NCBI GenBank assembly: GCA_000004985.1
Contig: GG738848.1
DNA from: Naegleria gruberi
Lineage: Eukaryota
Length of the DNA: 64,000 nucleotides
Reading direction: 5' to 3' (one strand)
In this document: one piece after another, positions 1 through 32,160 of the stretch
Position numbering within the stretch: position 1 is the first letter of the stretch
How the letters are laid out: every line of letters begins with the position of its first letter
Notes under the pieces: model-generated
Told to the model about the DNA's origin: nothing
Seen by the model: only the letters and a program-made list of their open reading frames with translations
Databases searched by the model: none
Made by a program: the position numbers and the translations under genes

Positions 1-444
1 AAACCCAAACCCAAACCCAAACCCAAACCCAAACCCAAACCCAAACCCAAACCCAAACCCAAACCCAAACCCAAACCCAAACCCAAACCCAAACCCAAAC
101 CCAAACCCAAACCCAAACCCAAACCCAAACCCAAACCCAAACCCAAACCCAAACCCAAACCCAAACCCAAACCCAAACCCAAACCCAAACCCAAACCCAA
201 ACCCAAACCCAAACCCAAACCCAAACCCAAACCCAAACCCAAACCCAAACCCAAACCCAAACCCAAACCCAAACCCAAACCCAAACCCAAACCCAAACCC
301 AAACCCAAACCCAAACCCAAACCCAAACCCAAACCCAAACCCAAACCCAAACCCAAACCCAAACCCAAACCCAAACCCAAACCCAAACCCAAACCCAAAC
401 CCAAACCCAAACCCAAACCCAAACCCAAACCCAAACCCAAACCC
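1..444. repeat. Telomeric repeat array (CCCAAA)n, 74 perfect units; G-strand repeat TTTGGG
   Basis: Perfect tandem hexamer aaaccc runs from nt 1 to 444. It ends at a unique junction (…acccaacatcgaatatcaaattt…). C-rich strand 5'->3' at the start of a contig is the expected orientation for a left chromosome end. Confidence 0.9.
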
Positions 445-447
445 AAC

Positions 448-2539: not shown

Positions 2540-3018
2540 AACATATTATATCCTAATATGAAAATGTTCCATTTGATGAGTAAACATCGAATATCAAATT
2601 TATTTTAACTTTCATATTTACAGATTTCTTCTCAATCACACATGGTCTACTTTGATGAAAAGGATGAAATCTTGAAAAAGGACCACCTATTGAAACTTTA
2701 CCAACATGATGTACATGATCTATAATGATATAGAATTCAATTTCATATCATAAAAATTAGAAATGGTACCATGGGAATGTAAATGTTGATTTTACAAAGT
2801 TGACTTTAAGGAAAGACAAGTCAGATCAAGTCTATCAAAAACATCACTTCAATCAACAAATTACACATGTACATGCTCCATTAGATGTGTAGAGATAGAA
2901 TATCAAGTTTATTTTAACTTTCATAATCAAGATTTCATCCCTTTCATACCATCTAGTCAACTATGGACATGGATGAAAATCTGGAAAATGACCTCTCTAT
3001 GAAACACTTCCATCATGT
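2540..3018. repeat. Subtelomeric satellite, higher-order repeat copy 2 (first part, interrupted by gap)
   Basis: 2578-2960 aligns with 445-800 (taaacatcgaatatcaaatttatttt[a/g]actttcatat… through …gatgtgtagagatagaatatcaagtttatttt[a/c]actttcat). Confidence 0.75.
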
Positions 3019-3319
3019 NNNNNNNNNNNNNNNNNNNNNNNNNNNNNNNNNNNNNNNNNNNNNNNNNNNNNNNNNNNNNNNNNNNNNNNNNNNNNNNNNN
3101 NNNNNNNNNNNNNNNNNNNNNNNNNNNNNNNNNNNNNNNNNNNNNNNNNNNNNNNNNNNNNNNNNNNNNNNNNNNNNNNNNNNNNNNNNNNNNNNNNNNN
3201 NNNNNNNNNNNNNNNNNNNNNNNNNNNNNNNNNNNNNNNNNNNNNNNNNNNNNNNNNNNNNNNNNNNNNNNNNNNNNNNNNNNNNNNNNNNNNNNNNNNN
3301 NNNNNNNNNNNNNNNNNNN
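3019..3319. other. Assembly gap (run of N)
   Basis: 301 consecutive n characters. Confidence 0.99.
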
Positions 3320-3870
3320 AGGTGAAAATCAAGATATCAAAAACATCACTCCAGTCAATAAAACACATATGAAAATGTTGCAAATGATGAGTAGTCATCG
3401 AAAATATCATTTATTCTAATTGGAAATATCTCTAATATATACTTGGAAGTCAACTCTCCCTCAAATGAACAAGTGAATCAGCCAAGTTGCCAATCTCAAA
3501 TTAAATCATATAATCATGTTCCACATCTCAAATAATGTATATAATTCAGTTTTTAGACATTTTGGTAAATATTCCATCATTCACTAAGGTAAAGGGTGAC
3601 TTATCAAGGTTGACTTGGAAAGTTAAGGAGGAAATCTTCAAATAGAGAACTACATCCTCAATCAACAAAATACATATCAATCGATTGGAAATCGATAGTA
3701 AATCTCGAAAATATCATTTATTTTATGATTTGAAATCTCTCCGTTACCTCTTTTGGTCAATTAAGACAATTAAGGATGATACTATAGGAAAAATTACCAA
3801 TCTCAAAATAAATGATAATATCGTGTTCCACATCTCAAATAAAGTGGACTTTCTTCAAATTATATAATTT
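3320..3870. repeat. Subtelomeric satellite copy 2 (continuation after gap)
   Basis: 3540-3790 aligns with 900-1153 (…cattttggt[g/a]aatatt[t/c]catc[t/a]ttca[g/c]taaggtaaagggtga … caatcaacaaaatacatatcaatcgattggaaatc[a/g]t[t/a]agta[c/a]atctcgaaaatat[a/c]atttattttatgatttgaaatctctcc). Confidence 0.75.
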
Positions 3871-4039
3871 CATTTCAAGAAATGCATCCAGTAGATAGTA
3901 CATGGTGATATTTCAATGGCATGGCTGCAAATCTGAAAGATATAGAAACAACTCCATTTTCACTGAAATTAATACCATGATATGTAGACACTCTAATTAG
4001 CATATGATATCAATTTCATGAATATTGGTTCAGTAGATA

Positions 4040-4570
4040 TTGAGTTGTCAACTCTATCATTTTACTATAGAACTTTGACATAAAATCAAAGATTATGCTC
4101 CAACTCACTTATTTTATATGAAATTAGTCTAGAATTGATAACACACATTATATACATCATTTATATACATCCATATACGTATTGAAACAATTCATGAAAC
4201 TTACATTCAGTCAATCAGTAAATGTTCAATGTCAAGAGTGATTATATCCAAGTGTACACTCTATCTCAATGAAAGTACATCCTATTATCGTGTAACTTTA
4301 CCATGTACGTTTAGTCACACTGATATACAACTGGTATCATTTTTAGTGTTTTAGAATCGAATTCAATATGATAATAATAACAATCTGTCAAATTGTCATA
4401 TTTCAACATATAGAATATACTCCATCTCATTCATTTTTCAAAATATCATACAAGTATCAAATATGAATACACTTCCCTAGATGAGGAGAACAATCTGAGA
4501 AAGTTTCACATTCATGGCTCAGTATCTTAAATTCCACTAACTTACCTTAGAAGAAGGTTTACGTTCCATC
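4040..4570. repeat. Subtelomeric segmental duplication, copy D1
   Basis: Collinear (~70-80% identity) with 5020-5194 + 6048-6400. Shared blocks include …aatcagtaaatgttcaat…, …tttagtcacact…ggtatca[t/a]ttt[t/c]agt[g/t]ttttagaat[c/t]gaattcaatatgataataataacaatct…, and …atcaaatatgaatacact…gatgaggag[a/t]acaatctgagaaagtttca[c/a]att[c/g]atggctcagtatctt. Confidence 0.75.
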
Positions 4571-5019
4571 TCAGTCATTTCATAGAGTTATTGATCAATT
4601 CCAACAACAGTATGTTACTCACACATTATAGTACAATTCATGTTTCAAGAGTGATTTCTATGATAAAGTTGATGGAAGTGAGTGCCAAATGGCACTTTCA
4701 CTTCCAATATAGTAGTAAGCTTTGTTAATCCTTTCGATTCTGAGCCATTTTCACATCAACTTGAATCTATTTTTAACTTTTCCGCGCGTTTTTCGGTTTG
4801 ATCAACCGGCAAAAATAATTTTGATCAAGTGATTTTATTGCCACTAGCCACCATCATAACTTGATATATATAAATATTTAACAATTTCACATCAGCCGTA
4901 TATTGTGCCCCATTACCATCACCATCTTTTGACATCATTTGTGATATATATTGTTAATGTATTTAAGGAGAAAAGCTTAATAAATAGGGGTTGACATGGG
5001 ATCCTAACACTCTAGATAT

Positions 5020-6400
5020 TTGACATGATATCATAGATTATACTCCAAATCACTCATTTTACATATAACAAGTCTAGAATTGATATCACATAGTCTATAT
5101 ATCAATTAAATACATCTACAATAGTTAAGAAACATTTCAAACTATTTTCATAAAATTAATCAGTAAATGTTCAATATCTGTACACAAACTCCCTCCGCTT
5201 TTTTAACGGGATCCCAACTTTGATGACCCACAACAGAATAGTTACTTAGTGATTCATCATAATTTAACTTATATGGTGTGCGCCTGTATGTTAACTATCA
5301 TCAGAATTGTTTTCAGCAGTTTATGTGTAGTAGGTCGATTGAAAACCTCAATTGAGTGAAAACATATATGAAAATTTCAAAATCCAATAAAACCAGAACC
5401 AGTATATGCCAAGCTCCAAATATCGAGATATGTACTCAAAACATCTTGAAATATAACCACAATCATTGGTTTGTTGATATTTATTGTCTGGACAAAGATA
5501 TGCAGGGTTAAAGTTGAGCTATTTTTCAAACTCAACTCAGTTGAAGTGGAACTGAAATGGAAGGTTGTTTCGGACTGAGTACCAAATAAGCAAATAAAGT
5601 CCAACAACAAATATTTAAAAAATTTAAGTTTTATTATTGTTTCTACAACCAAAACAATATTGGTTGTAGTTGTATGTTCAGGAACACAATATTCACCAAT
5701 GGGAATGTCTTCCTCCTCCATGAGAACCATAACAGGTCATTCAAAGAGAACTGTGATGAGAGCAGAAGTGGCAACAACCATGTGAACGGAAGATAGCTTC
5801 CTGTATTGCTTGCAAGTCTTATCTGGTAGTGTGGTGGGGCATGATGAAGAGAAAGGACCTTGCTAGAGGAGATGTGGTATTGCCCGTAACACGTTGCCTA
5901 TTTTTTTGTTGATGTTGTTTGTTGAAGAGTGGAAATTAACCTGTAAATTAGAATTTGTTAAATTTTTAATGTAACGGTTTTCAAGCGCGCTTGGAAGTAA
6001 AATGGAGGATCCTGTCAAATTATGAGGGATCCCGTTAAAAAAGCCGGTGAATCCCTTCAACAGATATCAACATTATATATATCCTAGTGAACACTCCATC
6101 TCAGTGAAAGTTATTCCAATCATTCTGTAACTTTACCCAATACGTTTAGTCACACTATTTTACATCTGGTATCAATTTCATAGTTTTAGAATTGAATTCA
6201 ATATGATAATAATAACAATCTTTCAAAATATCACATTTCAAAAAAGAGATTACACTCCATCTCAGTCAGTTTACAAAATATCATACTAGTATCAAATATG
6301 AATACACTCCTCTTGATGAGGAGTACAATCTGAGAAAGTTTCAAATTGATGGCTCAGTATCTTCAAGTCACCTAAGTACCTTAGAATAGACAAGTCAATT
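5020..6400. repeat. Subtelomeric segmental duplication, copy D2 (carries an ~850-bp insertion)
   Basis: Same alignment as D1. The 5195-6047 segment has no counterpart in D1. Confidence 0.75.
5195..6047. mobile_element. MITE-like non-autonomous DNA transposon insertion (~853 bp) bounded by ~21-bp imperfect terminal inverted repeats
   Basis: Left end is ccgcttttttaacgggatccc (5195-5215). Right end is gggatcccgttaaaaaagccgg (6026-6047), whose reverse complement ccggcttttttaacgggatccc matches the left end with 1 indel. It is present only in duplication copy D2. No convincing internal ORF (ORFs 5377-5730 and 5863-6060 show no recognisable similarity), and the target-site duplication is not clear. 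Confidence 0.6.
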
Positions 6401-13797: not shown

Positions 13798-14221
13798 ATT
13801 TTTTGTTTGTTAAATTATAACGAATCGTCTGCTTTCGAATATTTTTTCATCTTTCCCCAACTTTCAAGAGACCATACTTCTTTAAAAGGCTTGTAACTCA
13901 AAAAATATGAGTTCAAATAATTTATGACATTTGTTAGTGACATGCCAAACATGACAAGCAAACTAAAGTTTCTATTGAAGTATGTCATCATATCAACGGT
14001 ATTGATAGAATTTTGATCTTGTTCATTTGTGTTCACCTTGTTTTTAATACCTTGACAACTCATGTGAAAATCTGTTATAACAAATATGATGTTTGATATC
14101 TATTGGTTTTTTTCTATTTAAATGGTTGTATTAAAAGACAGATTGAATTTATATTAAAAATATTGGGAAATTTCCTAAACTGTTCAATATCTTGGCAAAA
14201 AGTCAAAAAGTTGAATCTGGA

Positions 14222-14612
14222 TGCGTCGACCGGGAATTGAACTTCCTTTTTTGGAATATTATATTTAATATTTAAATAGTTTACAATATTGAATAATGAA
14301 ACAATGTGTACATGTGTTGAAGTAGGGTACCCGTGAATCGATTCACCATATATAGAAGGGTACTATTCAATAAAGAACAACAAAAACAACAACAATAACA
14401 GTATTATTTGATACCGGGAGTCGCTTTTCCTTTTTGGGAATGCTGTGTGGTGCAGTTGGGTGGACGCAATACAATTTGTTAAAAAAATAAAAATAATAAA
14501 AATGAAATTGGGTAACGGGAGACGGTTTACTATATATGGAACATTCAAACATACAATTGAACCCGGGTCACGGCGATGGCAACGCCGTATTCTACCACTA
14601 AACCATCGACGC
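14222..14612 (-). pseudogene. tRNA-Gly(GCC) gene split in the T-loop by a 312-bp insertion (14243-14554) flanked by an 8-bp direct repeat GTTCAATT
   Basis: Minus strand 14612->14555 reads GCGTCGATGGTTTAGTGGTAGAATACGGCGTTGCCATCGCCGTGACCCGGGTTCAATT: acceptor stem, D arm, GCC anticodon loop and T stem/loop. Minus strand 14242->14222 reads GTTCAATTCCCGGTCGACGCA: T loop, 3' T stem and 3' acceptor complementary to the 5' acceptor. Joining the halves at the shared GTTCAATT gives a canonical 72-nt tRNA-Gly. Confidence 0.8.
14243..14554. mobile_element. Insertion of unknown class inside the tRNA-Gly gene (312 bp, 8-bp TSD GTTCAATT; internal palindromes)
   Basis: Bounded by duplicated GTTCAATT, one copy in each tRNA half. 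It has an A-rich end (…attccaaaaaaggaa in tRNA orientation) and internal palindromes gtgaatcgattcac and gggtaccc. ccatatatag and ctatatatgg occur as a reverse-complementary pair. No ORF. An 8-bp TSD suggests hAT-like, but a SINE-like retroposon cannot be excluded. Confidence 0.5.
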
Positions 14613-15061
14613 TTCACATTCACCCAAAATGTATTTTTCATACGTGATGATTTTCTGTAAAAAGCCCAGGCTGAGAGGTATCTTTTTAAAAGCAATTTGT
14701 GTACGAAAAGGTGAACTCTACCACCACCTTAATAAAAAATTTTAAATTATCCGTGCTGACGAGAATGAATATAGGAATATTTCAACCTTAAATGTTAATC
14801 TCCAATATTCTAATTTTCCTCATTATTGGCAATAATTTACTACTAATCACCATAAACTTGAAAATGTCGTCTTTTTGATGATTTGGACCAGCAATTATCT
14901 TCTTAATTTCGGGATATTTTGTTTATAGATATTGTCCACTACATTTTGAATTGTACGTACTTGCTCTTAATAAGGTTCCATATAAATTAATTATAAAATT
15001 AAAAGGTCGACGATTATACAAAAGAACCACCTAGTTTGGAGATTTGAAAACACTAAAAAGA

Positions 15062-18000
15062 ATGAAAGAACCCGTCCAAAAATTGTCGCAGCATCAGCAT
15101 AATTATCAAGCACTTTATCATCTTCGGATTAATCATATGAAATTCTTATTCACCCTTATTAAAATCATTATACTAGCAACAACAACAATAATATTATTGA
15201 GTAGTAGTAGTGACAGGTTCTTATTAGTGGTTCTCTCGAGTAGTACGAGTGGTATTATCAATATTTCGCCGAAAAATCCACAACTTGACTCGGTGCAGTG
15301 GAATGATGAGAGGGAAATTTGGTTTGCACAATCTTGTCCTCTTTCTGGATCGAATAAGAGGTGAGTATTTTCATCACCATCATTGATAATTAATTTTTAT
15401 ATATTATTGATCTGTTTCAACGCTTGCAAATGAACTGTTCACTTCCTTAATATATATTACAACATCATTAATAATTTTTAACTGCTTGCACACATGTATA
15501 TAAAAGATTGGGCATTGAAATGAGGGATGGAATATTGGCTGCCTTTCATGAAGCCAATTCAATAGGAGGCATTTGGGGCTCTAAGAAATTAAAACTATTA
15601 ACTTTTGATGATGCCTACGAACCAACCAATACTAAACAGAATACCGACTTTTTCCTATACAATATAACACCACCGAATACTTCCCTTAATTATGAATCCT
15701 ATTTTTCACAGAATTCCCAATACAGAGAACAGATGAAGAATGTGAAATTGTTTGGATTGTTGGGATTTGTGGGAACACCAACAACTCAGGCTGTATTTGG
15801 AGATGTCGTTTCGAATTCCTTTCCTTTGATTGGGCCTTTTACTGGGGTTGGTTGGCTGAGAACACCATTCTACCCGAATGTTATTAATGTGAGAGCTTCC
15901 TACGATGATGAAACAGCTGCTATGGTCGACTGGCTGATAAATGTCAAGCTCATTAGAAAGATTAGTGTCATGTATCAAGCTGATAGTTTCGGTCAAGCTG
16001 GTTTGAATGGAATTAAACGAGCTTTGGTCGATTATCTCAAAATACCAATTCGCTCCATAGGTAGCTATCCAAGAAACACTCTTCAAGTAGAAGATGCATT
16101 TGCTGAAATTGGTAAAGGTTCACCTTCAGCAATAGTTTGCATTGGAACTTATGCTCCTCTGGCTAAATATATCAAAATGGTAAAGAACATGGCATTTGCA
16201 ACGAATGGAAATAATAATGGATATGAAAATGCTCAGGAAATAATCATCCTGACTGTTAGTTTTGTTGGTTCTTCTGCTTTGGTAAGTGAATTGCAGTCAA
16301 GCGCCCCAATTTCAAACAAGTTTGGCTCAAGTTATTATACAGACAATGTGGTCATTACACAAGTGGTTCCTTCACCATTTAATTTGAGTTATCCTATTGT
16401 GAGATCCTATCAAAAGGCAAGAAAATCATACATACTTTCGAATAATCCTTCGGCTAATCTTTCAGATTTTGTTCCCTCTTTCATAGAACTGGAAGGATAC
16501 ATTGTAGGAAGATTTGTAAACAGTGTGCTACAGAAAATGTCTGGAAATTTGACCAGATCAAACTTTTTAGCGACTTCCTATTTTGGAGGAAGTAGAGCTG
16601 ATGTTACAATTGCAGATTCTTCAATAGGAGATGCATCTGGAGGGGTTTTCAATTTTGATGGAATGCAATTGGGACCTTATAGATGGTGTGACTCAGTCAA
16701 TCTGATCGATATGAATTTACCTTATTCTAATGGTTTCGTATTACCAAGTCAAACTTCGGCCAGCAATAGCAGCGCATGTTCTTCTTTCAATTGTAATCAA
16801 GGAATGAAAGTTGTGTACAAGAGCTCTATCGACATCAAAAACTCCTCAGTTTCCTTTTCTGTATTTGGTGATTTATTTTCTTGGTATAATTACAAATCTG
16901 GAAGCTATTGCATTTCAGATCCAGTTCTTGTAAAGAAACCTCTTTTATTTGGCCAATCAATTAATACAGCATCAGGTGATTTCACTGAAGAACTCATGTT
17001 AAGAAAAGGAATTCTGGCTGCATTCGCTCTTCACAATCAAGGATTGACGTCAAATCAACAAAAATTAGAACTCTTAACAATGTATCATTCAGGAACAAGT
17101 GAAATGTTGAAGAATACGAAGGAATTTGTAGAGATTCATCATGCTCTTGGATTATTAGGATATTCTTCAACTAATTTGAATGTTGACATGTTGTCGAAAG
17201 CAATGACAGACAATTCATCTCAACTGAATGGTATTGCATTGGTGGGAACTGCTTCTACTATTAATTCGATGGATTTCAGATCAAGTTTCTTCCAAAATAT
17301 TATTCACGTTCATAGTTCCATTTTAGAACAATTAGGAACTATTGTGGATTACTCAATTAACACTCTAGGTAGAACAAGAATATCCATTGTTTATAGTAGG
17401 AATCAAGATTCGATGGCAGCTTATTCGATTCTTAACGAAATATTGTCAAGTTTAGATTTAAAACTTGATTCAGAATCGTGTATTCAAAACGAAACTTTTA
17501 TTTCAACTGATACAATCATCAGCGATCTATCTTTGAATGGAGCTAATCCTCAAATCATCATCTTTGCATTCCCTTCAAATGTAAATAATATTGGATCAAT
17601 CATTTCTTCCATTCAACAAACTTTTTCAACAGAACCAAAGTTTAGAAATGAATTGACCATATTTATGATCAATTCATTCTTTAAAGAAAATGTAGAGGTT
17701 GAAATATTACCTTGGATTTCATCTCCCAAGTTGGATAATGTCAAACTAATGTACGTGTCACATGTTCCATCCATAAATGGAACAGCTCACATTTCCATTG
17801 AAAAGTTTAAGGCAGCTATGGAGCTCTACTCTCCAGATCTTTCAAATTTATACAATACCAAAGTGTTGGAAGGTTTCTTTATAGGAAGTTTCATCAGTAC
17901 AATTATGGAAAATCTTGGAAATGAACCAACAAGTCAAAATTTAATCGAAACTATTTATAAGGTAAAGACATTTATCAATTTCCAGACTACTTTTGGTGCA

Positions 18001-20532
18001 TTTTCAGAGTCTTCCACAAGTCCATGTAATTTGGGAATGAGAATGAGTTATATTTATGGGCTTTCGAATAGTGGAGTTTCAGAGATTGCCACGAGAGATC
18101 ATTCTTCAAATTGTGGACTACACAGCTATGTTTCAACAAGAACTTCTGTCATTCACAGTAAGATAGATAGACCAATCTTACTTGGAAGATTAATTCCATA
18201 CAAAAAGGATGAAAATTCATTGCAAAATAAGATTGAATTGCTGAGTGAAGTTTCGACAATTGACATGGATGATTATGCCAGAGGATTGACTACCTATCTA
18301 AGTTATTTATCCTCAAAACAGTCTTACCAAAGTGTCAAGACCAAGAAAATCCACTTACTCACCGAGTATTACAGTTTAACCTCAAGTGGCAAAACTTTTT
18401 CGGACAAGTTGACAGCTCTCATCCAAAAGAATAAGATTTTCGCTCTCGTTGGTTCCATCATTAAATTCGACGAATCTACACTTAGCACTAATGACAAAAT
18501 AGATCAAATCTCCAAAATCCTTTCGAATAACAATATTCCACTCATTGATTCTCTGACAGGAAGTATTCGAATGAGGAAACCTTTTTCACAAATGTTTGTA
18601 AACATTGGTCCTTCGTTGTTGGATCAAGGAATTGCTTTTATTAATTATGCAAAGAGTAGATTTGGTCAAATTGCAATTGTTTATCAAGATTCAGAGTATT
18701 GGAAAGGAGCTTTGGATGAGATTGTAAACTTTTGTAGAATTGAATCGATTACAATAGGTCAATTGAGAGCTATAGATATTTTCAAGTCAATATCAGATCA
18801 AACAGATCATTTTGAGTCATTTTTGAAGGAGAAGGAAGATGTGGCTATATTTATTTTGGCAAATGACGTTCATTCAGCTGAAATTGTTAAATTGACATCT
18901 GTCACACACAAGGCAAATAGTTTTACTAATAATATCTTGTTTGGAATTCCTGTAGAGTCTGCTACCATTGATTTTGAAAGTGCAGTGATGAGCTGTTCCT
19001 CCCTTAGAAATGAAACATCTCCCTTGATTAGTAGTTTCGTTTCTGGTAAATCAGATTCTGAACTAATGTCAATTGTCAGCTCTTACATTTCATCAAACAA
19101 GTTATTAATTACCAAATCCATGTATTCACCCAACTACATCTCCCAAACTCATGATCAATACTCATTTTCCACAAGATTTTACACTCAATTTGCTGAATTT
19201 TCAAATTACCCAAAAGCAAATTATTTCACATTCGAAGGATACGTGATGGGTTACTTTATAGACATGATGATGGGTAGTATCTATCAATCTCAAGGTATAT
19301 CTGATCAAATATCTGATATTGCCTCTCAAGATTTATTAGACGCAATTTATTCAAATTCAGTTTTTGATATAATCTTTAAAAAGATTGGTCCTATGGGATA
19401 TACATGTTCTAACAATACAGAGGCAAGATCTACATGTGAAGATTCTTCCACTTTGGTTGTTGGTTGTGGGTGCAATCAGGGAGCCAAAGCGGTCTATTTG
19501 TCTGGATTGGCCAATTTCACACTTTCTTATAATCAAACTAATCTCAATTTCTTTGACATTTCTGATTATTCCCTGACTTTCAGAACATGTGGAGTTGAAG
19601 CTGTCGTTCCTTCCTTGTCCATCATTGCCATTATTTTCATTGTCATTGGTTCCTTACTCGCTGTATTTATCCTAATCCTTTCTCCAATTCTGAGCTATCG
19701 TTATTACATCTCCAAAAAGGCAATTAAGCATGCACCAACTTCCAAGAATGGTAAATTAGCTTGCTGTTTCACTGATGTCCAAAACTCTACCGTTTTGTGG
19801 CAATCCAATGAAAAGGCAATGAGAGAAGCTTTAGTCATTCACAATCAAATAATGAGACGAAACTTGGAATTATGCAATGGATTTGAAGTCAAGACCAATG
19901 GTGATAGTTTCTTTGTAGTTTTCAAAGATCCAGTCGATGCACTTGATTGGTGTGTCTCTGTCCAACATGATTTACTACATGCCAAATGGCCAGCTGATTT
20001 ATATAGTATGTGGGATTGTAGACCTGAATGGGATGAAGAAAGTAGACGAATGATGTGGTCAGGGGTGAGAGTTAGAATGGGATTACACTATGCACAGGCT
20101 GATTATGTCTTTGATAAGGTCATGAAGAGACCTGATTATTTTGGAACTTGTGTGAATACTTCTGCCAGAGTGGAGGCAATGGCCCATGGTGGACAGATTT
20201 TAGTGACTGAGGAATTCTTTTTGGAAACATGGAGGATTATGAAGACATATTTGTATTCGAATGTAAAGTTTCAGGAGCAGAATTATTATGGCTATGTCCA
20301 CGATATAACTTTGGCCATGTCGAATCCGTTATTGAGCCAAACTGCTTCCTTTACGCAAGATTCAAGTTTCAATAATACGAATAATACGAATAATACTTCA
20401 ATGGTTTCTGGAACTCAGAGTTCTTCGAGTGGAAACACTTCAAAAACTCCAAAGAGTACAGATGTTTCCAGAAAGTTAAATCTGAACGCTGCTTCTAAAC
20501 GAAAGAGACCTAAACATGCTGAGATGATTTAG
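15062..20532 (+). CDS. Receptor-type adenylate cyclase: signal peptide, large periplasmic-binding-protein-like extracellular domain, single TM, class III nucleotidyl cyclase domain; 2 exons
   Basis: Exon 1 runs to 15360. In-frame ATGs at 15062 (MKEPVQ…) and 15137 (MKFLFTLIKIIILATTTIILLSSSS, signal-peptide-like). Donor aag ag|gtgagt at 15361, acceptor …ataaaag| at about 15506 (phase 2; junction uncertain by ±1 nt). Exon 2 runs to the stop at 20530-20532. TM region is AVVPSLSIIAIIFIVIGSLLAVFILILSPIL. The cyclase domain KLACCFTDVQNSTVLWQ…EVKTNGDSFFVVF…GVRVRMGLHYAQADYVFD…YFGTCVNTSARVEAMAHGGQILVTEEF matches class III cyclase motifs (metal-binding D, transition-state N/R). Same architecture as trypanosomatid receptor ACs. 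Confidence 0.8.
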
Positions 20533-27625: not shown

Positions 27626-27630
27626 AAAAA
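27626..27630 (-). terminator. Pol III terminator (T5) immediately 3' of the 5S gene
   Basis: Minus-strand TTTTT (plus-strand aaaaa) directly follows the 5S 3' end. Confidence 0.7.
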
Positions 27631-27748
27631 GACTACAGCACCACAGGTTCCCAAGTTGTCTCCAACCTCAGTACTGATGTGGCTCGACGATGCTTAACTT
27701 CTCAAATCGGACGGGATGAGGTGCATTCATCGTGATATGGCCGTAGCC
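27631..27748 (-). rRNA. 5S ribosomal RNA gene (dispersed copy)
   Basis: Minus-strand transcript GGCTACGGCCATATCACGATGAATGCACCTCATCCCGTCCGATTTGAGAAGTTAAGCATCGTCGAGCCACATCAGTACTGAGGTTGGAGACAACTTGGGAACCTGTGGTGCTGTAGTC (118 nt) aligns along its whole length with eukaryotic 5S rRNA (GCCTACGGCCATACCAC…CCCGTCCGATCTGCGAAGTTAAGC…GGTGCTGTAGGC). Confidence 0.9.
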
Positions 27749-29895: not shown

Positions 29896-31311
29896 TTAGT
29901 TTTGAGCAGTGTATTCCTTCAAGATTTGCTTGATGAATGATTCGAGACCTTCAGTCTTAGCAGCTGGAGTAGCAGTGGCAGTTTGGTTGGTAGCAGTCTT
30001 TGGGGCAACAACCTTTGGAGCAACAACAACAGGCTTCAATTGCTTCTTAGCAGCATTGATCTTCTTAACCAACTTCTTCAAGTCAGCCTTCAAACCCTTC
30101 TTAGCAAAAGCCTTCAAGAAAGCCTTCTTCAATTGTCTCTTCAAAGCCTTCTTCAATTGCTTTCTGTTGAGCTTTCTCTTTGGAGCGGCACACTTTCTGA
30201 CCTTTCTCTTTGGAGCAGCACATCTTCTTCTTCTAACAATCTTTCTCTTTGGAGCACAAGTTCTTCTTCTTCTGACGATCTTTCTCTTTGGAGCACCACA
30301 TTTCTTGGCAACTCTTCTCTTCAAGAATCTTCTGATGAATTTTGGAGCTCTTCTTCTCTTTGGAGCAGCACATCTTCTTCTCTTAACAACTCTCTTCTTT
30401 GGAGCAGCACACTTTCTCTTAACAACTCTTCTCTTTGGAGCAGCACACTTTCTCTTTGGAGCTCTTCTTGGGGCTCTTCTGACAGATCTTCTTCTCTTTG
30501 GAGCAGCACACTTTCTTCTTGGGGCTCTTCTTGATGATCTTCTTCTTGGAGCTCTTCTGGCAGATCTTCTTGATGATCTTCTTCTCTTTGGAGCAGATCT
30601 TCTAGTGGATCTTCTTCTCTTTGGAGCAGATCTTCTTGATGATCTTCTACCACCTCTTCTTTGTTGTCTTCTCTTTGGAGCAGATCTTCTTCTTGGAGCT
30701 CTTCTAGCAGATCTTCTGGTGGATCTTCTTCTTGGAGCAGATCTTCTTGATGATCTTCTAGTGGATCTTCTTTGTCTTCTAGCACCTCTTCTGGCTTGTT
30801 GTCTTCTGGTAGCTCTAACTAACTTTCTCAACAACTTTCTGACAATTCTGACAGACTTGGCGAACTTTCTAGAATTCTTCAATTGAGCAACGAGAGTAAC
30901 TAATTCTTCCTTTCTGTTATCCTTCTTCAACTTGTTCAAGTATTTGACAATCTTGGTCAACTTTCTCAAATAAGTAGTAGCAACCTTCTTGGACAATCTT
31001 CTTCTTTCGTGGGAAGTAGAGGTAACCAAACCGAGATTCTTGATATTCTTCAACAACTTTCTCAAATATCTAACAGCTCTTCTCTTACTGGCTCTTCTTC
31101 TTCTTGGTGCTCTTCTCTTTCTATCATCACCTCTTCTTCTTCTTGGTTGGGCATCTCTGGATTGTTTTTCACGTTGATCACGGACTGTTTGCAAGAATTT
31201 TTGCAACATGGCTTCTTGGTCAGCTTGTTCAGTGGTAGCCATTTGAGCGGTGGCAAAAACAGCCAAGAACAAAACAGCCAAAATGGCGGCAAGAATAAAA
31301 CTGCTTCTCAT
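29896..31311 (-). CDS. Secreted hyper-basic arginine-rich repeat protein (signal peptide, then ~440 aa dominated by RRSAP(K/R)RRRS(T/S)RRS and KCAAPKRR(V/R) repeats)
   Basis: ATG at 31311. MRSSFILAAILAVLFLAVFATAQ is a signal peptide. The body is >40% Arg+Lys, with tandem ~10-11-aa repeats, regularly spaced Cys in KCAAPKRR units, and an A/K/V/P-rich C-terminus. Coding DNA is built from AGA/AAG/GCT/CCA/TCT/TTG codons, so the local GC is well above surroundings. The plus-strand ORFs over this interval (poly-L/F/G) are antisense artefacts. Confidence 0.7.
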   Translation of the reverse strand: MRSSFILAAILAVLFLAVFATAQMATTEQADQEAMLQKFLQTVRDQREKQSRDAQPRRRRGDDRKRRAPRRRRASKRRAVRYLRKLLKNIKNLGLVTSTSHERRRLSKKVATTYLRKLTKIVKYLNKLKKDNRKEELVTLVAQLKNSRKFAKSVRIVRKLLRKLVRATRRQQARRGARRQRRSTRRSSRRSAPRRRSTRRSARRAPRRRSAPKRRQQRRGGRRSSRRSAPKRRRSTRRSAPKRRRSSRRSARRAPRRRSSRRAPRRKCAAPKRRRSVRRAPRRAPKRKCAAPKRRVVKRKCAAPKKRVVKRRRCAAPKRRRAPKFIRRFLKRRVAKKCGAPKRKIVRRRRTCAPKRKIVRRRRCAAPKRKVRKCAAPKRKLNRKQLKKALKRQLKKAFLKAFAKKGLKADLKKLVKKINAAKKQLKPVVVAPKVVAPKTATNQTATATPAAKTEGLESFIKQILKEYTAQN

Positions 31312-32088: not shown

Positions 32089-32160
32089 TAGCAAATCTAG
32101 GTTTCGATCCTAGGACCTATGGGTTATGAGCCCATCGCGCTTCCGCTGCGCCAATTTGCT
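32089..32160 (-). tRNA. Initiator tRNA-Met (CAU)
   Basis: Minus strand AGCAAATTGGCGCAGCGGAAGCGCGATGGGCTCATAACCCATAGGTCCTAGGATCGAAACCTAGATTTGCTA is 72 nt. It has A1:U72, anticodon loop CTCATAA with three G:C pairs in the anticodon stem, and T loop GATCGAAAC (A54/A60), the eukaryotic initiator hallmarks. It is near-identical in layout to human tRNAi-Met. Confidence 0.9.

What the first reader, a model, noticed from the sequence alone, without database searches (positions are those of the whole stretch)
14222..14612. tRNA-Gly(GCC) gene split in its T-loop by a 312-bp insertion flanked by an 8-bp target duplication
The tRNA 5' portion (through the T loop, minus strand 14612->14555) and the 3' portion (T loop to 3' end, minus strand 14242->14222) are each intact. 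They share the duplicated octamer GTTCAATT at the breakpoint. Removing 14243-14554 and one GTTCAATT copy restores a canonical tRNA. This is the signature of a transposable-element insertion. An 8-bp TSD is typical of hAT elements, and the element carries internal palindromes and an A-rich end. A non-canonical T-loop intron, as in Cyanidioschyzon or archaeal split tRNAs, is the less likely alternative. The tRNA gene is probably inactivated.
Basis: seen in the sequence. Interest (0 to 1): 0.6.

Follow-up and report, generated by a model that had tools for sequence, protein, structure and literature searches.

The report
Insertion-disrupted tRNA-Gly gene in Naegleria
One copy of the glycine tRNA gene near a chromosome end of the amoeba Naegleria gruberi is cut in two by 312 bp of inserted DNA flanked by an 8-bp duplication; it is most likely a dead gene copy, but the insert is not a recognisable hAT transposon and part of it is a later local duplication.

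Summary
On the minus strand, 14612-14555 is tRNA-Gly(GCC) up to the end of the T-loop. 14242-14222 is G53 to A73. GTTCAATT occurs at both junctions. Removing 14243-14554 and one octamer gives a canonical 71-nt tRNA. That sequence is identical, 71/71, to intact genes on two unrelated environmental contigs.

The host is Naegleria gruberi NEG-M, and the locus lies about 14 kb from a perfect (AAACCC)74 telomere-type array.

The transposon reading is only partly supported. An 8-bp target duplication fits a staggered-cut insertion. But there are no terminal inverted repeats, no second copy in the window, and no related sequence in any searchable collection. hAT membership therefore fails.

The insert is composite. 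It contains two diverged ~184-bp tandem units (54% identity, z = 6). The second unit includes the tRNA 3' part and its downstream flank. This suggests a primary insertion of about 128 bp, followed by a local duplication.

The intron alternative is weak. The insert carries T5, T5 and T7 runs at positions 53-74, and every pol III gene examined ends at a T5 run. No Rfam intron family matches. The BHB-like fold lacks one helix and is disfavoured by 10 kcal/mol.

One paradox remains: the units are highly diverged, yet both tRNA halves are unchanged.

The parts
14555..14612 (-). tRNA-Gly(GCC) 5' part: acceptor 5' strand, D arm, anticodon arm (GCC), variable loop, T-stem 5' strand CCGGG and whole T-loop TTCAATT. 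The A box TGGTTTAGTGG lies at 14595-14605.
   Evidence: 58/58 identical to the intact genes in L003 and L006. Partial Rfam tRNA hit at 14548-14612, 18.8 bits.
14555..14562 (-). Octamer GTTCAATT, copy 1 (G53 plus the 7-nt T-loop): left copy of the target-site duplication.
14243..14554 (-). 312-bp insert, 31% G+C. No ORF with homologues, no TIRs, no Rfam family.
14481..14502 (-). T5, T5 and T7 runs in the tRNA sense (insert positions 53-57, 62-66, 68-74): pol III terminator-like. A further T5 lies at 14382-14386.
   Evidence: T5 runs follow tRNA-Met, 5S rRNA, the L003 and L006 tRNA-Gly genes and this gene's own 3' end.
14367..14550 (-). Tandem unit 1 (about insert 5-188). It carries block a (14519-14541), block c (14413-14441), which is a decayed copy of the insert-end/T-arm junction, and block d (14362-14372).
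14179..14366 (-). Tandem unit 2 (insert 189-312, plus the tRNA 3' part, plus ~43 nt downstream). It carries block a' (14335-14357), block c' (14229-14257) and block d' (14179-14189).
   Evidence: Whole-unit global alignment z = 6.1, 0 of 500 shuffles as good; 54% identity.
14413..14441 (-). Internal 29-mer ATTCCCAAAAAGGAA-AAGCGAC-TCCCGGT. It matches the real 3' junction ATTCCAAAAAAGGAA-GTTCAAT-TCCCGGT at 23/29. The mismatches cluster in the 7 nt that correspond to the T-loop.
   Evidence: No other site on either strand of the 64-kb window reaches 21/29, and 0 of 5000 shuffles reach 23.
14235..14242 (-). Octamer GTTCAATT, copy 2: right copy of the target-site duplication.
14222..14242 (-). tRNA 3' part: G53, T-loop, T-stem 3' strand CCCGG, acceptor 3' strand TCGACGC, discriminator A73.
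   Evidence: 21/21 identical to L003 and L006.
14197..14209 (-). The gene's own pol III terminator: TTTTTGACTTTTT, starting 12 nt after A73.
14333..14346 (.). Perfect 14-nt palindrome GTGAATCGATTCAC, followed by GGGTACCC. Function unknown.

Best explanation
This is a pseudogene copy of the Naegleria gruberi tRNA-Gly(GCC) gene, lying in a subtelomeric region. Foreign DNA integrated into the T-loop at a staggered break, which duplicated 8 bp of target (GTTCAATT, G53-U60). A transposase or integrase cut, or target-primed reverse transcription, leaves this kind of signature. The inserted element is short, non-coding and of unresolved family, and it is not demonstrably hAT. The primary insert was probably about 128 bp. 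It later grew to 312 bp by a ~184-bp tandem duplication of [insert + tRNA 3' part + ~40 nt of downstream flank], possibly through unequal exchange between short TTGAA(T/C) repeats. The upstream copy of the 3' part has decayed. RNA polymerase III starting from the intact A box would stop at the T5/T5/T7 runs 53-74 nt into the insert, so no full precursor and no mature tRNA would come from this locus. Shown: the anatomy, the identity to intact genes, the absence of TIRs, the internal duplication and the T runs. Inferred: mobility of the insert, the order of events, and transcriptional termination.
For: The empty site is restored exactly, and it equals intact genes on two independent contigs. The 8-bp direct duplication sits exactly at the junctions. 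The insert has T5, T5, T7 and T5 runs in the tRNA sense. All five pol III gene ends examined stop at a T5 run within 0-12 nt. No group I, group II or other RNA family matches, and there is no unusual folding (z = -1.5). The internal duplication is supported as follows. The junction 29-mer recurs 184 nt upstream at 23/29, which is unique in the window. In-register blocks a (17/23) and d (10/11) have the same offset. The whole-unit alignment gives z = 6.1 and 54% identity, similar in the insert part (56%) and the flank part (50%). The host is N. gruberi NEG-M. The locus is ~14 kb from an (AAACCC)74 array, the kind of region where rearranged gene copies are common (general knowledge).
Against: Mobility has no direct support. 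There is no second copy in the 64-kb window. A six-frame pseudo-protein search against 5.8 billion proteins found nothing. Searches for ORFs overlapping this tRNA found no interrupted tRNA-Gly. These negatives are weak, because the N. gruberi genome itself could not be searched. There are no TIRs and no clean poly(A) tail. The two internal units differ at ~46% of sites, yet the 79 nt of tRNA sequence carry no change at all. Neutral decay of a dead gene after an in-situ duplication would not give this. It calls for gene conversion, selection, or units that had already diverged before they arrived here.
Confidence: 0.5

Rival explanations
1. One reading: a non-autonomous hAT-superfamily element (MITE) that inserted with the typical 8-bp TSD.
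For: The duplication is exactly 8 bp. The insert is small and non-coding.
Against: There are no terminal inverted repeats; the end-to-end alignment is no better than shuffled sequence. The ends GTATG.../...AGGAA do not resemble the YARNG-type hAT termini, and GTTCAATT fits the nTnnnnAn target consensus at only one of its two positions (both from my own knowledge of the family). No other copies were found. Part of the insert is a local duplication that includes tRNA and flank sequence, not element sequence.
Confidence: 0.07
2. A T-arm-specific mobile element that works like the Dada DNA transposons, or like a recombinase-mobilised element, and selects tRNA T-arms as its target. Under this reading the internal copy of the junction (insert end + 7 nt + TCCCGGT) is either the remnant of an earlier residence in another T-arm or a target-mimicking subterminal motif.
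For: Dada elements insert inside tRNA and snRNA genes, lack TIRs and make 6-7-bp TSDs that can look like 8 bp. Dada-tL_DR duplicates GCGTTCA in the T-arm of tRNA-Leu, and a subterminal motif recurs in the target (PMC3706591). Here there are no TIRs. The TSD lies in the T-loop and B box. An internal motif also shares TCCCGGT with the target next to a non-conserved 7-mer.
Against: The Dada survey of eukaryotic genomes lists no Naegleria. No symmetric subterminal inverted repeat was found. Only one insertion is visible, and the two other tRNA-Gly loci retrieved are intact. The in-register blocks a and d favour a plain local duplication as the origin of the internal junction copy.
Confidence: 0.12
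3. A functional gene with a non-canonical 312-nt intron in the T-loop, removed by the tRNA splicing endonuclease and ligase, as in Cyanidioschyzon merolae or Archaea.
For: Precise removal restores a perfect cloverleaf. AAUU is self-complementary, so the duplicated octamer can form T-stem (5 bp) / UUC bulge / AAUU:AAUU (4 bp) / UUC bulge. Cutting at equivalent positions in the two bulges would regenerate the T-loop (direct reading of the sequence). Both halves are unchanged although the insert's internal repeat units are 46% diverged, which could reflect constraint.
Against: There are three T5-T7 runs 53-74 nt into the insert and a T5 at 169-173, while T5 ends every pol III gene seen here. The third helix (h') is missing. 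The cloverleaf-plus-H fold has -70.0 against an MFE of -79.9 kcal/mol, and those pairs have ~0.2% probability. Overall folding is unremarkable, z = -1.5. Identical genes without any intron exist. Ectopic tRNA introns in eukaryotes are tens of nucleotides long and are known only from a red alga and nucleomorphs (PMC3728597, PMC9602550, PMC4090602).
Confidence: 0.07
4. Not a mobile element: a double-strand break in a highly transcribed tRNA gene was repaired with fill-in of 8-nt overhangs and capture of unrelated genomic DNA, followed by local duplication in an unstable subtelomeric region.
For: The insert has no transposon hallmarks and has ordinary intergenic composition, 31% G+C with microsatellite-like tracts. 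There is clear evidence of local duplication. The location is subtelomeric.
Against: A clean 8-bp duplication with no loss of target bases is what transposition typically leaves and is unusual for end-joining capture (general knowledge). The source of the captured DNA is not in the window.
Confidence: 0.2

Closest known systems
Dada DNA transposons (Kojima & Jurka 2013, PMC3706591), e.g. Dada-tL_DR in zebrafish tRNA-Leu and Dada-tG_PMar in Perkinsus tRNA-Gly
   Same: The insertion lies inside a multicopy tRNA gene, within the pol III promoter box and T-arm. It has a short TSD and no terminal inverted repeats, and short internally deleted derivatives of Dada elements are known.
   Different: The apparent TSD is 8 bp rather than 6-7 bp. 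No symmetric subterminal inverted repeats were found. No transposase or other copy could be shown. Naegleria is not among the reported hosts. Much of the insert is a local duplication.
hAT-derived MITEs
   Same: An 8-bp target-site duplication and a small non-coding insert.
   Different: There are no TIRs, the termini are not hAT-like, and no family of copies was found.
Ectopic BHB-dependent tRNA introns (Archaea; Cyanidioschyzon merolae, PMC3728597 and PMC9602550)
   Same: The interruption is at a non-canonical position in the T-arm. Exact removal restores the tRNA. A bulge-helix-bulge-like arrangement can be drawn.
   Different: The insert is 312 nt rather than tens of nucleotides. It contains several pol III terminator-like T runs. 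The outer intron helix is missing and the fold is thermodynamically disfavoured. Intact intron-less copies of the same gene exist.
Prokaryotic integrases that use tRNA T-arms as attB
   Same: The T-stem/7-nt loop/T-stem symmetry is the site of interruption, and the loop sequence is duplicated at both junctions.
   Different: The host is a eukaryote. The insert is 312 bp and non-coding. The tRNA 3' end is not regenerated next to the 5' part. The would-be attP has no recombinase arm sites.

Membership tests
hAT superfamily (non-autonomous element) | 8-bp target-site duplication | tested here: met
   GTTCAATT at 14555-14562 and 14235-14242.
hAT superfamily (non-autonomous element) | Terminal inverted repeats of about 10-25 bp | tested here: not met
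   Local alignment of the left 58 nt against the reverse complement of the right 58 nt scores 13. The null mean is 14.1, and 71% of shuffles score at least as well.
hAT superfamily (non-autonomous element) | Several dispersed copies with different flanks, and a hAT transposase in the genome | not testable with these tools
   No copy in the 64-kb window. The N. gruberi assembly could not be retrieved. The pseudo-protein search was empty.
Dada superfamily | Insertion at a fixed site inside a multicopy small RNA gene | tested here: inconclusive
   The insertion is inside tRNA-Gly(GCC), but only one insertion is visible. The other two loci retrieved are intact.
Dada superfamily | 6-7-bp TSD | tested here: inconclusive
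   The apparent TSD is 8 bp. Dada-U1 also shows an apparent 8 bp that its authors interpret as 6.
Dada superfamily | [quoted passage not shown] | tested here: inconclusive
   There are no TIRs. No symmetric subterminal inverted repeat was found. There is, however, an internal direct copy of the insert-end/T-stem junction.
Dada superfamily | Dada DDE transposase encoded in the host genome | not tested
   Table 1 of PMC3706591 lists no Naegleria.
BHB-dependent non-canonical tRNA intron | Exact excision restores a canonical cloverleaf | tested here: met
   ARAGORN on the reconstructed sequence. It is identical to intact genes.
BHB-dependent non-canonical tRNA intron | Bulge-helix-bulge motif (3-nt bulge, 4-bp helix, 3-nt bulge, with flanking helices) at the junctions | tested here: inconclusive
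   h (T-stem), the UUC bulge, H (AAUU:AAUU) and the second UUC bulge can be drawn. h' is absent (G-G, then A-A). The constrained fold is 10 kcal/mol above the MFE, and the pair probability is 0.2%.
BHB-dependent non-canonical tRNA intron | The intron can be transcribed by pol III (no terminator inside) | tested here: not met
   T5, T5 and T7 at insert 53-74 and T5 at 169-173. T5 runs terminate the neighbouring pol III genes.
BHB-dependent non-canonical tRNA intron | Mature spliced tRNA produced from the locus | not testable with these tools
   This needs small-RNA sequencing or a Northern blot.
Group I / group II self-splicing intron | Conserved catalytic core detectable by covariance model | tested here: not met
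   Rfam 15 E-value scan of 14000-14850: only chance-level hits plus the partial tRNA.
tRNA-derived SINE / non-LTR retroposon | Internal pol III promoter or tRNA-like head, and a 3' poly(A) or simple-repeat tail | tested here: not met
   No tRNA-like hit inside the insert at E <= 10. The 3' end is CCAAAAAAGGAA, not a tail.

The most novel reading that the evidence does not exclude
The interruption is old, as the two internal units at ~54% identity suggest, and both tRNA halves have been kept unchanged by constraint. On that reading, either this heterolobosean expresses a tRNA-Gly from a T-loop-interrupted gene, with the duplicated, self-complementary octamer supplying a relaxed BHB for the splicing endonuclease. 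Or N. gruberi harbours a so far undescribed T-arm-specific mobile element whose junction motif (ATTCCNAAAAAGGAA-N7-TCCCGGT) is part of its targeting.
Probability: 0.1. Interest if true: 0.75.

Novelty: new member of a known kind. Interest (0 to 1): 0.3.

Why it matters
If this is an ordinary insertion pseudogene, it matters mainly for annotation. It is a tRNA-Gly copy that standard tRNA finders miss, in a subtelomeric region of a reference protist genome. It is also a warning that '8-bp TSD = hAT' does not follow from sequence alone. If the halves are under constraint, it would be the first ectopic tRNA intron, or the first T-arm-targeting element, outside red algae, nucleomorphs and the known Dada hosts. 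It would then bear on how disrupted tRNA genes arise, since a T-loop target duplication produces a BHB-like motif by itself. That mechanism for intron gain could be tested.

Tried and rejected
- **Other copies of the insert.** blastn against the window gave only low-complexity hits, and both termini are unique. A masked six-frame translation searched against 5.8 billion proteins gave nothing. The 110-aa pseudo-ORF searched against 1.84 billion representatives hit only ORFs lying over intact tRNA-Gly genes. A six-frame translation of the intact tRNA gave 18 hits; in the nine whose sequences I retrieved the T-arm reads through uninterrupted, one with a single substitution.
- **Junction and block-a motifs in other collections.** The junction motif gave two chance hits inside bacterial coding sequence and none in viral contigs. 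The block-a motif gave 28 hits in viral contigs, none with motif c nearby, so they are chance.
- **Orthologous empty site.** The neighbouring cyclase ORF has no close relative in the database; the best hit is 50% identical on L002, with no tRNA-Gly and no synteny. N. gruberi DNA cannot be fetched. The 215-aa neighbour is not on record.
- **Group I/II intron or other structured RNA.** None was found.
- **Spliceosomal intron.** The insert starts with GTATGT, but no AG-ended excision restores the tRNA (read directly).
- **Solo LTR.** A TG...CA reading would leave only a 2-bp TSD and no LTR-type terminal repeats.
- **Tc1/mariner, piggyBac and PIF-type TSDs.** The octamer contains no TA, TTAA or TWA.
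- **Ancestral tandem tRNA array with a 184-bp period.** The 52 nt upstream of each T-arm-like block do not resemble the tRNA 5' part.
- **Literature.** Searches for Naegleria tRNA introns or tRNA-targeting elements found nothing specific.

Full report
**1. Observation**

On the minus strand, 14612->14555 reads GCGTCGATGGTTTAGTGGTAGAATACGGCGTTGCCATCGCCGTGACCCGGGTTCAATT. This is a tRNA-Gly(GCC) from position 1 to the last T-loop base. 14242->14222 reads GTTCAATTCCCGGTCGACGCA, which runs from G53 through the T-loop, T-stem and acceptor 3' strands to A73.

The octamer GTTCAATT is present at both junctions, and 312 bp (14243-14554) lie between them. ARAGORN and Rfam at gathering threshold see no tRNA here. 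A permissive Rfam scan finds only a partial hit on the 5' part. After removing the 312 bp and one octamer, ARAGORN calls a canonical 71-nt tRNA-Gly(gcc).

A scan of metagenome contigs with 32 nt of the 5' part returned L003. It carries an intact gene identical to the reconstruction, next to a tRNA-Ile. A search for ORFs lying over this tRNA led to a second, unrelated contig, L006, which has the same intact 71-nt gene. The two halves match these genes 58/58 and 21/21.

**2. Host and setting**

Four window ORFs are exact matches to Naegleria gruberi NEG-M proteins on a 712,659-bp scaffold. The window begins with 74 perfect AAACCC repeats, a telomere-type array. The split gene therefore lies about 14 kb from a chromosome end.

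The gene sits in a 1.7-kb spacer between two large ORFs. One encodes a protein with EGF, GPS and RGS domains. The other encodes a protein with a periplasmic-binding domain and a nucleotide cyclase domain. The window also holds a 5S rRNA gene and a tRNA-Met gene.

**3. What the insert is not**

- It has no terminal inverted repeats. The ends align no better than shuffled sequence.
- It has no coding capacity with any homologue.
- Its fold is not unusually stable, z = -1.5.
- No second copy exists in the window.
- No related sequence turned up in the protein-based or pattern-based searches of public collections.

These negative results have low power. The N. gruberi assembly cannot be reached with the tools available.

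**4. What the insert is: a composite**

The 29 nt across the 3' junction are ATTCCAAAAAAGGAA|GTTCAAT|TCCCGGT. They recur 184 nt upstream inside the insert as ATTCCCAAAAAGGAA|AAGCGAC|TCCCGGT, a 23/29 match. No other position on either strand of the window reaches even 21/29, and none of 5000 shuffles reaches 23.

Two further blocks are in register:
- Insert 14-36 matches insert 198-220 at 17/23, offset 184.
- TATTGAATAGT at insert 183-193 matches TATTGAACAGT, which lies 33-43 nt downstream of the tRNA 3' end, at 10/11, offset 183.

Aligned as wholes, the two ~180-nt units score z = 6.1 above dinucleotide shuffles, with 0 of 500 shuffles as good. They are 54% identical. Identity is similar in the insert part (56%) and in the part corresponding to the tRNA 3' end plus flank (50%). 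The stretches between the blocks are not individually significant.

The simplest reading has two steps. First came a primary insertion of about 128 bp. Then came a tandem duplication of [insert + tRNA 3' part + ~40 nt of flank]. A TTGAA(T/C) motif sits at the start of unit 1, at the unit boundary and after unit 2, so the duplication may have arisen by unequal exchange between these short repeats. That step is inference.

**5. How the locus most likely behaves**

The A box is intact. The B box is cut after nine of its eleven positions. In the tRNA sense the insert has T5, T5 and T7 runs at positions 53-74 and another T5 at 169-173. All five pol III gene ends I could inspect are followed by T5 within 0-12 nt. 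They are tRNA-Met, 5S rRNA, the tRNA-Gly genes of L003 and L006, and this gene's own 3' end. It is established that pol III terminates at short T runs. I therefore infer that transcription from this locus ends 110-135 nt from the start and that no full precursor is made. The gene is most likely dead. The loss should be tolerable, because tRNA-Gly(GCC) is normally a multicopy gene. Its copy number in N. gruberi was not measured here.

**6. The intron alternative**

AAUU is self-complementary, so the duplicated octamer can be drawn as follows: T-stem (5 bp), a UUC bulge, an AAUU:AAUU helix (4 bp) and a second UUC bulge. That is the geometry of a bulge-helix-bulge motif, and cutting at equivalent positions in the two bulges would regenerate the T-loop.

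However, the outer intron helix is missing. The cloverleaf-plus-helix fold is 10 kcal/mol worse than the MFE, and the relevant pairs have about 0.2% probability. Add the internal terminators, the 312-nt length and the existence of intron-less identical genes, and I give this reading about 7%. Ectopic tRNA introns in eukaryotes are so far documented in Cyanidioschyzon and nucleomorphs and are short (PMC3728597, PMC9602550, PMC4090602).

**7. Comparison with known systems**

An 8-bp TSD is the only hAT feature met. TIRs were tested and are absent, so I do not file the insert as hAT.

The closest functional analogue is the Dada superfamily. Dada elements insert inside tRNA and snRNA genes, lack TIRs and make 6-7-bp TSDs that can look like 8 bp. 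One family duplicates GCGTTCA in the T-arm of tRNA-Leu (PMC3706591). Membership cannot be claimed:
- Naegleria is not a reported host.
- No symmetric subterminal repeat was found.
- Neither a transposase nor other copies could be tested.

A non-transposon origin, by break repair with captured DNA in an unstable subtelomere, remains a serious rival at about 20%.

**8. Unexplained**

Suppose the 184-bp duplication happened in place and the units have since diverged to 54% identity. Then the 79 nt of tRNA sequence should have accumulated many changes. They have none, while the upstream copy of the 3' part is decayed (about 9-11 of 21 positions retained).

Three explanations are possible:
- Gene conversion from intact paralogues keeps the halves unchanged.
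- The halves are under selection.
- The units diverged elsewhere and arrived here recently.

I could not discriminate among these.

**9. Verdict**

The finding is real, and the gene is very probably inactivated by inserted DNA. The specific hAT interpretation is not supported. The insert is more complicated than a single element. This is a modestly interesting pseudogene. There is a small chance (about 10%) that it hides something new: a constrained T-loop-interrupted tRNA gene or a T-arm-specific element. The decisive tests are a whole-genome copy search, a comparison with related strains and small-RNA data.

Noticed in passing
window 1-446: 74.3 perfect tandem copies of AAACCC (G-strand TTTGGG/GGGTTT) at the very start of the window. 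This is a telomere-type array, so the window is a chromosome or scaffold end of N. gruberi. A literature search did not turn up a description of the Naegleria telomere repeat.
   Followed up: partly
window 15508-20532 (+): A 1674-aa ORF (periplasmic-binding domain + adenylate/guanylate cyclase) has no self-hit in the 5.8-billion-protein database. The best hit is 50% identical, and N. gruberi paralogues are 41-42% identical. Other window ORFs do match N. gruberi NEG-M proteins exactly. The gene seems to be missing from the published protein set.
   Followed up: no
window 27630-27748 (-) and 32089-32160 (-): A single dispersed 5S rRNA gene (105 bits) and a tRNA-Met(CAT) gene. Each is followed by a T5 run within a few nucleotides.
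   Followed up: partly
window 29896-31311, both strands: Long overlapping ORFs on both strands (471 aa on the minus strand; 325 and 183 aa on the plus strand) in the most G+C-rich 2-kb bin of the window (38% G+C, AT skew -0.18). The 471-aa ORF has no Pfam hit.
   Followed up: no
L007 1-1447 (ENA, TARA scaffold): Nine tRNA genes of different specificities packed head-to-tail on one strand in 1.4 kb, including a tRNA-Gly(GCC) closely similar to the Naegleria one. The organism is unknown.
   Followed up: no
L006 (ENA k141_1691636), genes at 3-398, 467-970, 2952-3176, 3291-3749, 3794-5518: The ORFs recorded for this eukaryote-like contig contain in-frame TGA codons. They were evidently called with a TGA=Trp code. 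Several are spurious, including the one that lies over the tRNA-Gly gene.
   Followed up: partly
window 14333-14346 and 14325-14332: A perfect 14-nt palindrome GTGAATCGATTCAC is followed directly by the 8-nt palindrome GGGTACCC, inside unit 2 of the insert. The corresponding stretch of unit 1 is not palindromic.
   Followed up: no
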